In this document: positions 20,545-46,300 of the stretch, one piece after another | Numbering within the stretch: the stretch's first letter is position 1 | Layout of the letters: every line of letters starts with the position of its first letter | Origin: the human T2T-CHM13v2.0 reference genome, Homo sapiens | NCBI RefSeq assembly: GCF_009914755.1 | Contig: NC_060937.1 | Length of the DNA: 64,000 nucleotides | Reading direction: 5' to 3' (one strand) | The notes under the pieces: generated by a model | The model's database searches: none | Seen by the model: only the letters and a program-made list of their open reading frames with translations | What the model was told of the DNA's origin: nothing | Program-made: the position numbers and the translations under genes

Positions 20545-22889
20545 ATTTTATTTATTTATTATTATTATACTTTAAGTTTTAGGGTACATGTGCACAATGT
20601 GCAGGTTAGTTACATATGTATACATGTGCCATGCTGGTGTGCTGCACCCATTAACTCGTCATTTAGCATTAGGTATATCTCCTAATGCTATCCCTCCCCT
20701 CTCCCCCTACCCCACAACAGTCCCCAGAGTGTGATGCTCCCCTTCCTGTGTCCATGTGTTCTCATTGTTCAATTCCCACCTACGAGTGAGAACATATGGT
20801 GTTTGGTTTTTTGTCCTTGCGATAGTTTACTGAGAATATGATTTCCAATTTCATCCATGTCCCTACAAAGGATATGAACTCATCATTTTTTATGGCTGCA
20901 TAGTATTCCATGGTGTATATGTGCCACATTTTCTTAATCCAGTCTATCATTGTTGGACATTTGGGTTGGTTCCAAGTCTTTGCTATTGTGAATAGTGTAC
21001 AATAAACATATGGGTGCATGTGTCTTTACAGCAGCATGATTTATAGTCCTTTGGGTATATACCCAGTAATGGGATGGCTGGGTCAAATGGTATTTCTAGT
21101 TCTAGATCCCTGAGGAATCGCCACACTGACTTCCACAATGGTTGAACTAGTTTACAGTCCTACCAACAGTGTAAAAGTGTTCTTATTTCTCCACATCCTC
21201 CCCAGCACCTTTTGTTTCCTGACTTTTTAATAATTGCCATTCTAACTGGTGTGAGATGGTATCTCATTGTGGTTTTGATTTGCATTTCTCTGATGGCCAG
21301 TGATGATGAGCATTTTTTCATGTGTCTTTTGGCTGCATAAATGTCTTCTTTTCAGAAGTGTCTGTTCATATCCTTCAAGGCTGGTTCAATATATGCAAAT
21401 CAATAAATGTAATCCAGCATATAAACAAAACCAAAGACAAAAACCACATGATTATCTCAATAGATGCAGAAAAGGCCTTTGACAAAATTCAACAACCTTC
21501 ATGCTAAAAACTCTCAATAAATTAGGTATTGATGGGACATATCTCAAAATAATAAGAGTTATCTAGGACAAACCCACAGCCAATATCATACTGAATGGGA
21601 ATAAACTGGAAGCATTCCCTTTGAAAACTGGCACAAGACAGGGATGCCCTCTCTCACCGCTCCTATTCAACATAGTGTTGGAAGTTCTGGCCAGGGCAAT
21701 TAGGCAGGAGAAGGAAATAAAGGGTATTCAATTAGGAAAAGAGGAAGTCAAATTGTCCCTGTTTGCAGATGACATGATTGTGTATCTAGAAAACCCCATT
21801 GTCTCAGCCCAAAATCTCCTTAAGCTGATAAGCAACTTCAGCAAAGTCTCAGGATACAAAATCAATGTACAAAAATCACAAGCATTCTTATACACCAATA
21901 ACAGACAAACAGAGAGCCAAATCATGAGTGAACTCCCATTCACAATTGCTTCAAAGAGAATAAAATGCCTAGGAATCCAGCTTACAAGGGATGTGAAGGA
22001 CCTCTTCAAGGAGAACTACAAACCACTGCTCAAGGAAATAAAAGAGGATACAAACAAATGGAAGAACATTCCATGCTCATGGGTAGGAAGAATCAATATC
22101 GTGAAAATGGCCATACTGCCCAAGGTAATTTATAGATTCAATGCCATCCCCATCAAGCTACCAATGACTTTCTTCACAAAATTGGAAAAAACTACTTTAA
22201 AGTTCATATGGAACCAAAAAAGAGCCCGCATCACCAAGTCAATCCTAAGCCAAAAGAACAAAGCTGGAGGCATCACGCTACCTGACTTCAAACTACACTA
22301 CAAGGCTACAGTAACCAAAACAGCATGGTACTGGTACCAAAACAGAGATATAGATCAATGGAACAGAACACAGCCCTCAGAAATAACGCCGCATATCTAC
22401 AACTATCTGATCTTTGACAAACCTGACAAAAACAAGCAATGGGGAAAGGATTCCCTATTTAATAAATGGTGCTGGGAAAACTGGCTAGCCATATGGAGAA
22501 AGCTGAAACTGGATCCCTTCCTTACACCTTATACAAAAATTAATTCAAGATGGAATAAAGACTTAAACGTTAGACCTAAAACCATAAAAACCCTAGAAGA
22601 AAACCTAGGCATTACCATTCACGACATAGGCATGGGCAAGGACTTCATGTCTAAAACACCAAAAGCAATGGCAACAAAAGCCAAAATTGACAAATGGGAT
22701 CTAATTAAACTAAAGAGCTTCTGCACAGCAAAAGAAACTACCATCAGAGTGAACAGGCAACCTACAAAATGAGAGAAAATTTTCGCAACCTACTCATCTG
22801 ACAAAGGGCTAATATCCAGAATCTACAATGAACTCAAACAAATTTACAAGGAAAAAACAAACAACCCCATCAAAAACTGGGCGAAGGAT
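20545..22889 (-). mobile_element. 5'-truncated, 5'-inverted (twin-primed) LINE-1, L1PA3-like
   Basis: 3'UTR/ORF2 end on minus strand 20545-21376, inverted ORF2 RT segment on plus strand 21376-22889 (ORF 21621..22772 with LFADD); TSD AAAAATGACACATTT at 20530-20544 and 22890-22904; 3'UTR AAATGACGAGTTAATGGG. Confidence 0.95.
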
Positions 22890-43329: not shown

Positions 43330-46300
43330 TGTGTATTAGCTGGACTTCAAAAAAGTCCAAATTTTTTCTCAAGCCTAGATCCTTCCCCTGAACTCCAATG
43401 GCCTATTTGGACATGTTTCCTTAATATTTAGCTGGCACCTTAAACTCACTTTTCCAATTAGAATTTATCTTCCTCCTTGACTTGCCCCTACATCGCAGTA
43501 AATCATTAGTTTTTATAACTCTTTTCTCTTTCATGCCGCACACATCTAACCATAGAGCGCATCTTGCTGGTTCTAACCTCAAAATGCATTCGTTTTCCAA
43601 ATACTTCTTACCACCCTCACTACTCTTCCCGATCCAAGCCAACATTATTCCTCCTCTAGATTATTTTAACAGCATCAGAGTGGTTTTACTCATTCTACCA
43701 TTATTCATCTACACTTTTTCCTCAACAGAGCAGCCAAAGCAATCCTTTGAAAATTTAAGTCAGATGTCACTCTTTTGCTCAAAACCTTCCGTGGCTTTTG
43801 AGTGGCTCCTCATCTCAGAGTAAAGTCAAATCTTTTTTTTTTTTTTTTTAATTATTATACTTTAAGTTTTAGGGTACATGTGCACATTGTGCAGGTTAGT
43901 TACATATGCATACATGTGCCATGCTGGTGCGCTGCACCCACTAACTCGTCATCTAGCCTTAGGTATATCTCCCAGTGCTATCCCTCCCCGCTCCCCCCAC
44001 CCCACCACAGTCCCCAGAGTGTGATATTCCCCTTCATGTGTCCATGTGATCTCATTGTTCAATTCCCACCTATGAGTGAGAATATGCGGTGTTTGGTTTT
44101 TTGTTCTTGCGATAGTTTACTGAGAATGATGATTTCCAATTTCATCCATGTCCCTACAAAGGATATGAACTCATCATTTTTTATGGCTGCATAGTATTCC
44201 ATGGTGTATATGTGCCACATTTTCTTAATCCAGTCTATCATTGTTGGACATTTGGGTTGGTTCCAAGTCTTTGCTATTGTGAATAATGCCGCAATAAACA
44301 TACGTGTGCATGTGTCTTTATAGCAGCATGATTTATAGTCCTTTGGGTATATACCCAGTAATGGGATGGCTGGGTCAAATGGTATTTCTAGTTCTAGATC
44401 CCTGAGGAATCGCCACACTGACTTCCACAATGGTTGAACTAGTTTACAGTCCCACCAACAGTGTAAAAGTGTTCCTATTTCTCCACATCCTCTCCAGCAC
44501 CTGTTGTTTCCTGACTTTTTAATGATTGCCATTCTAACTGGTGTGAGATGATATCTCATAGTGGTTTTGATTTGCATTTCTCTGATGGCCAGTGATGATG
44601 AGCATTTTTTCATGTGTTTTTTGGCTGCATAAATGTCTTCTTTTGAGAAGTGTCTGTTCATGTCCTTCGCCCACTTTTTGATGGGGTTGTTTGTTTTTTT
44701 CTTGTAAATTTGTTTGAGTTCATTGTAGATTCTGGATATTAGCCCTTTGTCAGATGAGTAGGTTGCGAAAATTTTCTCCCATTTTGTAGGTTGCCTGTTC
44801 ACTCTGATGGTAGTTTCTTTTGCTGTGCAGAAGCTCTTTAGTTTAATTAGATCCCATTTGTCAATTTTGGCTTTTGTTGCCATTGCTTTTGGTGTTTTGG
44901 ACATGAAGTCCTTGCCCATGCCTATGTCCTGAATGGTAATGCCTAGGTTTTCTTCTAGGGTTTTTATGGTTTTAGGTCTAACGTTTAAATCTTTAATCCA
45001 TCTTGAATTGATTTTTGTATAAGGTGTAAGGAAGGGATCCAGTTTCAGCTTTCTCCATATGGCTAGCCAGTTTTCCCAGCACCATTTATTAAATAGGGAA
45101 TCCTTTCCCCATTGCTTGTTTTTCTCAGGTTTGTCAAAGATCAGATAGTTGTACGTATGCGGCGTTATTTCTGAGGGCTCTGTTCTGTTCCATTGATCTA
45201 TATCTCTGTTTTGGTACCAGTACCATGCTGTTTTGGTTACTGTAGCCTTGTAGTATAGTTTGAAGTCAGGTAGTGTGATGCCTCCAGCTTTGTTCTTTTG
45301 GCTTAGGATTGACTTGGCGATGCGGGCTCTTTTTTGGTTCCATATGAACTTTAAAGTAGTTTTTTCCAATTATGTGAAGAAAGTCATTGGTAGCTTGATG
45401 GGGATGGCATTGAATCTGTAAATTACCTTGGGCAGTATGGCCATTTTCACGATATTGAGTCTTCCTACCCATGAGCATGGAATGTTCTTCCATTTGTTTG
45501 TATCCTCTTTTATTTCCTTGAGCAGTGGTTTGTAGTTCTCCTTGAAGAGGTCCTTCACATCCCTTGTAAGTTGGATTCCTAGGTATTTTATTCTCTTTGA
45601 AGCAATTGTGAATGGGAGTTCACTCATGATTTGGCTCTCTGTTTGTCTGTTGTTGGTGTATAAGAATGCTTATTGATTTTTGTACATTGATTTTGTATCC
45701 TGAGACTTTGCTGAAGTTGCTTCTCAGCTTAAGGAGATTTTGGGCTGAGACGATGGGGTTTTCTAGATAAACAATCATGTCGTCTGCAAACAGGGACAAT
45801 TTGACTTCCTCTTTTCCTAATTGAATACCCTTTATTTCCTTCTCCTGCCTGATTGGCCTGGCCAGAACTTCCAACACTATGTTGAATAGGAGCGGTGAGA
45901 GAGGGCATCCCTGTCTTGTGCCAGTTTTCAAAGGGAATGCTTCCAGTTTTTGCCCATTCAGTATGATATTGGCTGTGGGTCTGTCATAGACAGCTCTTAT
46001 TATTTTGAAATACGTCCCATCAATACCTAATTTATTGAGAGTTTTTAGCATGAAGCGTTGTTGAATTTTGTCAAAGGCTTTTTCTGCATCTATTGAGATA
46101 ATCATGTGGTTTTTGTCTTTGGCTCTGTTTATATGCTGGATTACATTTATTGATTTGCGTATATTGAACCAGCCTTGCATCCCAGGGATGAAGCCCACTT
46201 GATCATGATAAAGGGGATATCACCACTGATCCCACAGAAATACAAACTACCATCAGAGAATACTACAAACACCTCTACGCAAATAAACTAGAAAATCTAG

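What the first reader, a model, noticed from the sequence alone, without database searches (positions are those of the whole stretch)
21376..46177. Two twin-primed L1s create a ~1.5-kb inverted repeat bracketing exactly the two U12-linked exons
Seen: the inverted segment of the first L1 (plus strand, 21376-22889) covers the same ORF2 interval as part of the second L1 on the minus strand (about 44662-46177). The translated ORFs are almost identical. The ~21.8-kb spacer holds only the exons at 34845-34969 and 28622-28786 and their AT-AC intron. Both L1s inserted in the same orientation, so the inverted repeat exists only because of the twin-priming inversion. Established: complementary intronic repeats promote back-splicing, exon skipping and ADAR editing. 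Inference: a recently evolved, ape-lineage pre-mRNA duplex may drive a 290-nt circRNA that needs both spliceosomes, or skip both exons (frameshift). It is also an NAHR inversion substrate.
Basis: partly seen in the sequence, partly recalled or inferred. Interest (0 to 1): 0.72.

Follow-up and report, generated by a model that had tools for sequence, protein, structure and literature searches.

The report
Two inverted L1s flank DIAPH3 exons
Two old jumping-gene (L1) insertions in neighbouring DIAPH3 introns do form a 1.5-kb near-perfect inverted repeat around two exons, but this is an ordinary by-product of how L1 inserts and nothing yet shows that it changes splicing.

Summary
Window 21376-22888 (+) and 46177-44663 (-) align over 1515 columns with 42 differences (97.2%). 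Both elements are single L1 insertions with a 5' inversion (twin priming). Each has exact target-site duplications and an A-rich tail, and its two segments overlap slightly in L1 coordinates. Both lie in the DIAPH3 sense orientation, so the inverted repeat exists only because of the inversion in the first L1. The intron between the enclosed exons is a textbook AT-AC U12 intron, and the outer splice sites are GT/AG.

The functional reading is untested. The predicted duplex is very stable (-2726 kcal/mol) and neither arm has a competing partner. But the arms are 21.8 kb apart and lie 5.7 and 9.7 kb from the splice sites. A random spacer of this length encloses exactly these two exons in 36.5% of placements. 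The longest identical run is 119 bp, which makes it a weak recombination substrate. The only human DIAPH3 circRNA I found with coordinates probably uses the same acceptor but a donor about 65 kb downstream.

Most likely this is a largely neutral, fixed primate L1 pair, perhaps with some RNA editing. Interest is low to moderate.

The parts
20530..20544 (.). Left target-site duplication of L1#1 (AAAAATGACACATTT)
   Evidence: Exactly 2 matches in the window, 0 expected in 100 shuffles; sequence read.
20545..21376 (-). L1#1 non-inverted 3' segment: end of ORF2, 3'UTR and a degenerate A-rich tail. It is in sense to DIAPH3.
   Evidence: Direct repeat with 43834-44668 of L1#2, 43 differences in 837 columns. 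The tail TAATAATAATAAATAAATAAAATAAA was read.
21376..22889 (+). L1#1 inverted 5' segment (ORF2p about residues 570-1078). It is antisense in the DIAPH3 pre-mRNA and forms the downstream arm of the inverted repeat.
   Evidence: The 401-aa ORF matches ORF2p 635-1034, E 1.8e-259. The 65-aa piece matches ORF2p 570-611. Pfam RVT_1 at 1.3e-20. Aligned to L1#2.
22890..22904 (.). Right target-site duplication of L1#1
   Evidence: sequence read.
28622..28786 (-). DIAPH3 coding exon (165 nt) with a U12-type AC acceptor and a U2-type GT donor (atg|gtatgg)
   Evidence: Hub annotation. Splice sites read. Pfam FH2 profile positions 319-371 of 372, E 2.4e-08.
28787..34844 (-). AT-AC U12-type intron (6,058 nt)
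   Evidence: 5' end ATATCCTTT. TACCTTAAC about 11 nt before the terminal AC at 28788-28787.
34845..34969 (-). DIAPH3 coding exon (125 nt) with a U2-type AG acceptor (ttttag|) and a U12-type AT donor
   Evidence: Hub annotation. Splice sites read. Pfam FH2 positions 277-317 of 372, E 5.1e-05, below the curated cut-off.
43823..43834 (.). Left target-site duplication of L1#2 (AAGTCAAATCTT)
   Evidence: Exactly 2 matches in the window, 0.01 expected; sequence read.
43835..46212 (-). L1#2 non-inverted segment: ORF2p about residue 559 to 1275, 3'UTR and an A-rich tail of about 20 nt. It is in sense to DIAPH3. Positions 44663-46177 form the upstream arm of the inverted repeat.
   Evidence: The 436-aa ORF matches ORF2p 840-1275, E 8.8e-299. 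The 199-aa ORF matches 559-745. The tail was read.
46210..46708 (+). L1#2 inverted 5' segment (ORF2p about residues 393-563). It has no complementary partner in L1#1.
   Evidence: The 162-aa ORF matches ORF2p 393-552, E 6.4e-96. Sequence read. About 12 nt (atcatgatcaag) occur in both segments.
46709..46720 (.). Right target-site duplication of L1#2
   Evidence: sequence read.

Best explanation
These are two independent, fixed, primate-specific L1 insertions, each 5'-truncated and 5'-inverted by twin priming. They sit in the two ~22-kb U2-type introns on either side of a DIAPH3 exon pair joined by an AT-AC U12 intron. Both were inserted in the gene's sense orientation. L1#1's inverted piece covers ORF2p ~570-1078 and L1#2's non-inverted piece covers ~559-1275, so the pre-mRNA carries a 1.5-kb, 98%-pairable complementary pair across a 21.8-kb loop. 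This much is shown. My inference is that the repeat is a by-product of L1 integration with little or no effect on DIAPH3 output. In most transcripts the upstream intron is probably removed, or the arms are coated or unwound, before the second arm is made; that arm is finished 13.6 kb after the acceptor is transcribed. In a minority of transcripts the duplex may form in the nucleus. The most probable consequence there is A-to-I editing of both arms, with at most low-level back-splicing (the 290-nt circle) or double-exon skipping that is cleared by NMD.
For: Shown. The repeat is 97.2% identical over 1515 columns. Exact TSDs flank each composite element. Each element has an A-rich tail. The ORF2p intervals are established. 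The two segments of each element overlap by 7 nt and about 12 nt in L1 coordinates. Both copies carry stops and frameshifts. The U12 and U2 splice sites are as described.

For possible pairing. RNAduplex gives -2726.4 kcal/mol with 1483 bp, against -373 to -474 for the four best Alu pairs tested. The arms pair as 1473 Watson-Crick + 11 G:U + 29 mismatches + 2 bulges, with uninterrupted runs of up to 198 bp counting G:U. Of 46 inverted pairs in the window, 14 span the two flanking introns; the L1 pair is by far the best (2536 bits against 321 or less). Neither repeat arm has a partner inside its own intron. In the 299 kb of DIAPH3 surveyed (about 60% of the gene), it is the only one of the 7 inverted pairs of 400 nt or more that combines at least 90% identity with a gap under 100 kb.

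For little effect. The arms lie 5,734 and 9,694 nt from the donor and acceptor, and the loop is 21,774 nt. A genome-wide dsRNA catalogue limits itself to 10-kb windows because most long-range intramolecular RNA contacts span less than 10 kb (PMC11838218, passages). RefSeq lists no transcript that skips these exons (hub table). Enclosing these two exons is the commonest chance outcome at 36.5%.
Against: Nothing here measures RNA. No circRNA database, editing database, RNA-seq or cross-species alignment could be consulted, so a real effect is not excluded. The duplex is unusually long and perfect and has no competitor. The slow U12 intron next to the acceptor exon could delay upstream splicing and give the arms time to meet. 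The acceptor at 34969 probably does take part in back-splicing: hsa_circ_0100755 (PMC9437624 Table 1) was mapped through a spacing match that is 17 nt off in 65 kb and through recalled hg19 gene ends. The exon is therefore not inert with respect to circularisation.
Confidence: 0.7

Rival explanations
1. The L1-L1 duplex forms co-transcriptionally. It brings the GT donor at 28622 next to the AG acceptor at 34969 and drives an ape-specific 290-nt circRNA whose internal AT-AC intron is removed by the minor spliceosome. Alternatively it loops out both exons, giving a frameshifted, NMD-targeted mRNA and lowering DIAPH3 output.
For: Complementary arms lie in both flanking introns. They are by far the strongest pair and have no competitors. 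The back-splice sites are of U2 type. Single-exon circles are disfavoured because each exon has one U12-type and one U2-type site, and AT-AC-flanked back-splices have no support (PMC4165365, passages). Any circle from these exons should therefore contain both. The acceptor at 34969 is probably used by a circBase circle. Reverse-complementary LINE1-like pairs are linked to circRNAs in maize (bioRxiv 10.1101/100578, abstract only).
Against: I found no report of this junction. A search for 60413582, the predicted start coordinates 60407234 and 60407235, and hsa_circ_0100755 returned 1 paper, which holds only the longer circle. The circDIAPH3 literature found (36 papers, 15 listed; passages of several read) gives no exon composition. 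Its founding cases are in rat and mouse, which cannot carry these primate L1s. The arms are 5.7 and 9.7 kb from the splice sites and 21.8 kb apart. For hsa_circ_0100755, L1#1 lies inside the circle, so the pair cannot be what flanks it. Abundant conserved circRNAs with long flanking introns are reported to be largely independent of inverted repeats (PMC7819710, passages).
Confidence: 0.1
2. The duplex forms in a fraction of nuclear pre-mRNAs or excised introns and serves mainly as a long ADAR substrate. Both arms are hyper-edited, with no measurable effect on splicing and no cytoplasmic immune sensing.
For: Uninterrupted paired runs reach 119 bp (198 bp with G:U), far above the ~30 bp preferred by ADAR (PMC11838218, passages). 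Edited repetitive dsRNAs are longer and better paired than unedited ones (same paper). Intronic dsRNAs are almost excluded from the MDA5-immunogenic set (PMC12695637, passages).
Against: Loop lengths of edited dsRNAs average around 2 kb, and the catalogue does not look beyond 10 kb. The two arms end up on different introns: after linear splicing they are on two separate lariats, so pairing has to precede splicing or occur in trans. No editing data could be consulted.
Confidence: 0.3
3. At the DNA level, the pair is a substrate for non-allelic homologous recombination. This would invert the 21.8-kb segment with both exons and give rare DIAPH3 loss-of-function alleles or somatic inversions.
For: A 1.5-kb inverted repeat at 97.2% identity, 21.8 kb apart. 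Retrotransposon-mediated inversions are known in primate genomes (recalled, not read here).
Against: The longest uninterrupted identity is 119 bp (next 113, 111, 93). That is below the several hundred bp usually quoted for efficient meiotic recombination in humans (recalled). The assembly shows the non-inverted state, with an intact exon order (hub annotation). No population data were available.
Confidence: 0.05

Closest known systems
L1 5' inversion by twin priming (Ostertag and Kazazian model; recalled, not read here)
   Same: Each element has one pair of exact TSDs around the whole composite, an A-rich tail, a 5' piece in the opposite orientation, and two pieces that abut in L1 coordinates with a small overlap of 7 and about 12 nt. 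There is 4-nt microhomology between the target and L1 at the internal priming site.
   Different: Nothing differs in the mechanism. The only particular point is that the inverted piece of one element overlaps the non-inverted piece of a second, same-orientation element 21.8 kb away.
Complementary-sequence (inverted Alu) mediated exon circularisation
   Same: Reverse-complementary repeats lie in the introns on both sides of exons that have a GT donor and an AG acceptor.
   Different: The arms are L1, not Alu. They are five times longer and far more perfect, but much further from the splice sites (5.7 and 9.7 kb) and from each other (21.8 kb). No back-splice junction is documented.
LINE1-like reverse-complementary pairs flanking circRNAs in maize (bioRxiv 10.1101/100578, abstract only)
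   Same: LINE-derived inverted pairs lie in flanking sequence and are proposed to promote circRNA formation.
   Different: That case is in a plant and rests on population-level association. Here there is one human locus with no expression evidence.
hsa_circ_0100755 (DIAPH3, hg19 chr13:60348323-60413582; PMC9437624 Table 1)
   Same: It probably starts at the same acceptor (window 34969) and contains both exons, so it also needs removal of the AT-AC intron. The mapping rests on a 60-nt exon with a GT donor found 17 nt from the predicted place and on recalled hg19 gene ends.
   Different: Its donor lies about 65 kb downstream, outside the window. L1#1 is inside the circle, so the L1 pair does not flank it.

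Membership tests
LINE-1 insertion with 5' inversion (twin priming) | Sequence is L1 (ORF2 reverse transcriptase and C-terminal part, 3'UTR) | tested here: met
   Matches to human L1 ORF2p structures 8c8j, 8uw3, 8sxt and 9k6g: E 1.8e-259 (L1#1, residues 635-1034), E 8.8e-299 (L1#2, 840-1275), plus pieces at 393-552, 559-745 and 570-611. Pfam RVT_1.
LINE-1 insertion with 5' inversion (twin priming) | One pair of target-site duplications encloses both the inverted and the non-inverted piece | tested here: met
   A 15-nt exact TSD at 20530-20544 and 22890-22904, and a 12-nt exact TSD at 43823-43834 and 46709-46720. Each occurs exactly twice in the window, with 0.00 and 0.01 expected.
LINE-1 insertion with 5' inversion (twin priming) | A-rich tail at the 3' end next to one TSD | tested here: met
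   L1#2 has an A-rich tail of about 20 nt (TT plus an unbroken A run). L1#1 has a degenerate (TAAA)-like tail.
LINE-1 insertion with 5' inversion (twin priming) | The two pieces are adjacent in L1 coordinates, with a small duplication or deletion at the break | tested here: met
   L1#1: the pieces end at L1#2-equivalent positions 44668 and 44663, and GAAGGAT is present in both. L1#2: atcatgatcaag is present in both pieces, and the ORF2p intervals ~393-563 and 559-1275 abut.
LINE-1 insertion with 5' inversion (twin priming) | Endonuclease target resembling TTTT/AA (recalled consensus) | tested here: inconclusive
   The pre-insertion sites, read from the TSDs and flanks, are CATTT/TTAATA for L1#1 and ATCTT/TACAA for L1#2. 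They are T-rich then A-rich, but the exact nick position is ambiguous.
U12-type AT-AC intron | 5' splice site /ATATCCTT | tested here: met
   atgtcc|ATATCCTTTtgat at 34844 downward on the minus strand. The consensus is recalled.
U12-type AT-AC intron | Branch-site TCCTTAAC-like box 10-15 nt from the 3' end, with no polypyrimidine tract needed | tested here: met
   TACCTTAAC, then about 11 nt to the terminal AC. The consensus is recalled.
U12-type AT-AC intron | Intron ends in AC | tested here: met
   …tagtatAC|agatttg, with AC at 28788-28787.
U12-type AT-AC intron | Removed by the minor spliceosome | not testable with these tools
   Two searches (DIAPH3 with 'minor intron', 2 papers; DIAPH3 with 'U12', 8 papers). 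In the one passage I read the term sat only in a reference title; the other hits I saw only as listings, none concerned with this intron by title or abstract. I recall DIAPH genes being listed in U12 intron databases.
Inverted-repeat-flanked circRNA locus | Reverse-complementary sequences in both flanking introns that outcompete within-intron pairs | tested here: met
   The L1 pair scores 2536 bits against 321 or less for the other 13 cross-intron pairs. Neither repeat arm has a within-intron partner. dG is -2726 against -373 to -474 kcal/mol.
Inverted-repeat-flanked circRNA locus | Compatible GT donor and AG acceptor at the predicted back-splice | tested here: met
   catg|gtatgg at 28622/28621 and ttttag|tctc at 34970/34969.
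Inverted-repeat-flanked circRNA locus | An observed back-splice junction | not testable with these tools
   No circBase or circAtlas is at hand. The literature search for the predicted coordinates found no paper that holds them. The three held supplements of PMC7819710 have 0 occurrences of DIAPH3.
NAHR inversion substrate | Inverted paralogous segments of high identity | tested here: met
   1515 columns at 97.2%.
NAHR inversion substrate | A long uninterrupted identical tract (several hundred bp; recalled threshold) | tested here: not met
   The longest identical runs are 119, 113, 111 and 93 bp.

The most novel reading that the evidence does not exclude
A hominoid-specific 1.5-kb L1-L1 duplex, made possible only by a twin-priming inversion, combines with the slow AT-AC intron beside the acceptor exon. 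Together they delay linear splicing long enough to produce a lineage-specific 290-nt DIAPH3 circRNA that needs both spliceosomes, or a double-exon skip that tunes DIAPH3 dosage. This would be a case where the geometry of L1 integration, not only its presence, creates a new RNA-processing outcome.
Probability: 0.08. Interest if true: 0.55.

Novelty: new member of a known kind. Interest (0 to 1): 0.25.

Why it matters
If the duplex acted on splicing, it would show that twin priming can turn two same-orientation L1s into a long intronic inverted repeat with a lineage-specific effect. The gene matters because its dosage does: DIAPH3 over-expression causes auditory neuropathy AUNA1 (recalled). It would also be a natural test of interplay between the major and minor spliceosomes in back-splicing. 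As things stand, it is a cleanly resolved example of two twin-primed L1 insertions and a reasonable candidate for a deletion experiment. It is not evidence of function. The pair lies beyond the 10-kb span limit that one genome-wide dsRNA catalogue uses (PMC11838218), so such long-loop L1 pairs may be under-surveyed.

Tried and rejected
(1) Gene conversion between the arms. The arms are 97.2% identical and the direct 3' parts 94.9%. A Fisher test with the tail columns roughly removed gives p = 0.022. But differences within the arms are spread fairly evenly, at 1-7 per 100 columns. The 3'UTR is where L1 subfamilies differ most (recalled). I therefore do not claim conversion.

(2) Two adjacent independent L1 fragments instead of one twin-primed element. 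I rejected this for both elements because a single exact TSD pair encloses each composite and the pieces abut in L1 coordinates.

(3) Segmental duplication. I rejected this because the homology stops at the L1 ends and the TSDs differ.

(4) Relative age. CpG sites have decayed in L1#1 only at 8 places and in L1#2 only at 2. Private amino-acid changes in ORF2p 839-1034 number about 6 against 1 by my reading. L1#1's tail is degenerate. L1#1 is probably the older, but the counts are small. Both copies read GACGAGTTA at the 3'UTR site that I recall as diagnostic, so neither is human-specific Ta (the motif meaning is recalled). The pairwise divergence of 85 differences in 2352 columns suggests ages in the hominoid range under recalled neutral rates. 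No other primate genome was available.

(5) circDIAPH3 literature. Of 36 papers, 15 were listed. I searched PMC10495302, PMC11116235, PMC8807483 and PMC6497739 for exon and identifier terms. They gave no exon composition and no human coordinates; the only identifier was the rat rno-circ_0056717.

(7) A full-gene survey of inverted repeats. Only about 299 of about 498 kb were surveyed.

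
Full report
**1. The observation**

A self-comparison of the window finds one outstanding inverted repeat: 21376-22888 (+) against 46177-44663 (-), 97.228% over 1515 columns, 2536 bits. The repeat finder sees it as three ungapped pieces of 1018, 409 and 121 nt; the breaks are two one-base indels. 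My alignment has 42 differences in 1515 columns, spread at 1-7 per 100 columns.

Immediately to the left, 20543-21376 is a direct repeat of 43833-44668 (94.9%; 43 differences in 837 columns).

**2. What the two elements are**

The ORFs in both elements are human L1 ORF2.
- L1#1's 401-aa frame matches ORF2p residues 635-1034 (E 1.8e-259).
- L1#2's 436-aa frame matches residues 840-1275 (E 8.8e-299).
- Further pieces match 393-552, 559-745 and 570-611.
- Pfam gives RVT_1.
- Both copies carry stops and frameshifts.

L1#1 is 20545-22889. It is enclosed by an exact 15-nt duplication at 20530-20544 and 22890-22904 (2 matches, 0 expected). Its 3' 832 nt, with an A-rich tail, lie on the minus strand. 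The next 1.5 kb of L1 (ORF2p about 570-1078) lies on the plus strand. The two pieces share 7 nt (GAAGGAT) in L1 coordinates.

L1#2 is 43835-46708. It is enclosed by an exact 12-nt duplication at 43823-43834 and 46709-46720. It has an A-rich tail of about 20 nt. A minus-strand piece runs to about 46212 (ORF2p 559-1275). A plus-strand piece covers ORF2p about 393-563, and about 12 nt are shared between the pieces.

At both internal priming ends, 4 nt of L1 sequence match the start of the TSD (ATGA; AAGT).

This is the signature of twin priming, and it rules out adjacent independent fragments or a duplication. Both L1s are in sense to DIAPH3, which is on the minus strand.

**3. Age**

Both copies read GACGAGTTA at the 3'UTR site that I recall as distinguishing older subfamilies from human-specific Ta. 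Against L1HS ORF2p, I count about 16 differences in 400 aa for L1#1 and about 10 in 436 aa for L1#2 from the alignments.

L1#1 looks the older of the two. CpG sites are lost only in L1#1 at 8 places and only in L1#2 at 2, and L1#1's tail is degenerate.

Overall divergence is 85 differences in 2352 columns. Under recalled neutral rates this points to insertions within the hominoid time range. No other primate genome was available, so 'ape lineage' is plausible but not shown.

**4. The enclosed exons**

The 21,774-nt spacer holds only the exons 34845-34969 and 28622-28786 (hub annotation). On the minus strand the intron between them begins ATATCCTTT and ends AC, with TACCTTAAC about 11 nt upstream of the 3' end. 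That is a canonical AT-AC U12-type intron of 6,058 nt.

The outer sites are of U2 type: ttttag|TCTC at 34969 and CATG|gtatgg at 28622. Each exon therefore has one U12-type and one U2-type site. By inference, a circle made from either exon alone would need a mixed splice-site pair. AT-AC-flanked back-splices have no support in the data of PMC4165365 (passages). Any circle from these exons should therefore contain both.

The exons encode the last part of the FH2 domain (Pfam PF02181 positions 277-371 of 372). Together they are 290 nt, so skipping both shifts the frame.

**5. Is the arrangement special?**

In one respect it is. Among 46 inverted pairs in the window, 14 link the two flanking introns. 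The L1 pair is far the strongest (2536 bits against 321 or less), and neither repeat arm has a complementary partner within its own intron. RNAduplex gives -2726.4 kcal/mol (1483 bp), against -373 to -474 kcal/mol for the four best Alu pairs I tested. In RNA the arms pair as 1473 Watson-Crick, 11 G:U, 29 mismatches and 2 bulges.

I also surveyed 299 kb of the ~498-kb gene. Seven inverted pairs of 400 nt or more exist in the surveyed part. This is the only one that combines at least 90% identity with a gap under 100 kb.

In another respect it is not special. A 21,774-nt spacer dropped anywhere in the window encloses exactly these two exons in 36.5% of placements, which is the commonest outcome. 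The link to the U12 intron is therefore most simply coincidence.

**6. Would it act?**

The arms lie 5,734 nt beyond the donor and 9,694 nt before the acceptor. The second arm is completed 13,593 nt after the acceptor is transcribed, which is several minutes at recalled Pol II speeds. During that time the upstream intron can be spliced in the ordinary way.

Three papers bear on this.
- A genome-wide dsRNA catalogue restricts itself to 10-kb windows because most long-range intramolecular contacts are shorter. It finds that edited duplexes have loops of about 2 kb on average (PMC11838218, passages).
- Abundant, conserved circRNAs with long flanking introns are reported to be largely independent of inverted repeats (PMC7819710, passages).
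- Intronic dsRNAs are nearly absent from the MDA5-immunogenic set (PMC12695637, passages). An immune role is therefore unlikely.

For recombination, the longest identical run is 119 bp, which is short for efficient NAHR by recalled thresholds.

**7. What is in print**

The circDIAPH3 papers found (36 papers, 15 listed) are mostly rodent-based or are reviews. The four I searched for exon and identifier terms give no exon composition and no human coordinates.

One table lists hsa_circ_0100755, DIAPH3, hg19 chr13:60348323-60413582 (PMC9437624). Suppose its upper end is the acceptor at window 34969. This fits the range I get from recalled hg19 gene ends. Its lower end should then fall at T2T 58,993,711. 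The genome there holds a 60-nt exon, aacag|ATGTTC...CCATG|gtaata, whose last base is 58,993,694. That is 17 nt away over 65 kb.

So this acceptor probably does back-splice, but to a donor about 65 kb downstream, with L1#1 inside the circle. If that circle is fully spliced, it already 'needs both spliceosomes'.

No paper holds the coordinates predicted for the 290-nt circle. circBase, circAtlas and REDIportal could not be consulted.

**8. Verdict**

The anatomy is confirmed and fully explained by two independent twin-primed L1 insertions. The proposed RNA and DNA consequences are reasonable hypotheses without evidence. The geometry argues for at most a minor effect, and editing is the likeliest. 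This is a new instance of a known kind, of low to moderate interest, and it can be tested with public RNA-seq and a single deletion.

Noticed in passing
window 24739-24892 and 26194-26346: A 154-nt inverted repeat at 92% identity, with arms 1.3 kb apart, lies in the downstream intron between L1#1 and the exon. It looks like the terminal inverted repeats of a ~1.6-kb DNA transposon. It was not identified.
   Followed up: no
window 39804-40058 and 40559-40809: Two inverted Alu-like repeats lie only 501 nt apart in the upstream intron (82%, predicted dG -373 kcal/mol). This is a much more typical candidate for a local hairpin and A-to-I editing than the L1 pair.
   Followed up: partly
window 34961-34969 (minus strand): A second AG lies 9 nt inside the exon (ttttag|tctctgtag|aaacg), a possible in-frame alternative acceptor.
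   Followed up: no
window -95226..-94228 (outside the window; loci L003-L016): Another young L1 3' end lies on the plus strand, antisense to DIAPH3. It is 96.1% identical over 999 nt to L1#2 and 94.6% over 839 nt to L1#1, but it is more than 110 kb away.
   Followed up: no
L002 4694-4753 (T2T chr13:58,993,694-58,993,753, minus strand): A 60-nt DIAPH3-like exon with an AG acceptor and a GT donor is the probable donor exon of circBase hsa_circ_0100755.
   Followed up: partly
window 20545-20575 (minus strand): The degenerate tail of L1#1 contains AATAAA motifs in the sense orientation of DIAPH3, a possible weak intronic polyadenylation signal.
   Followed up: no
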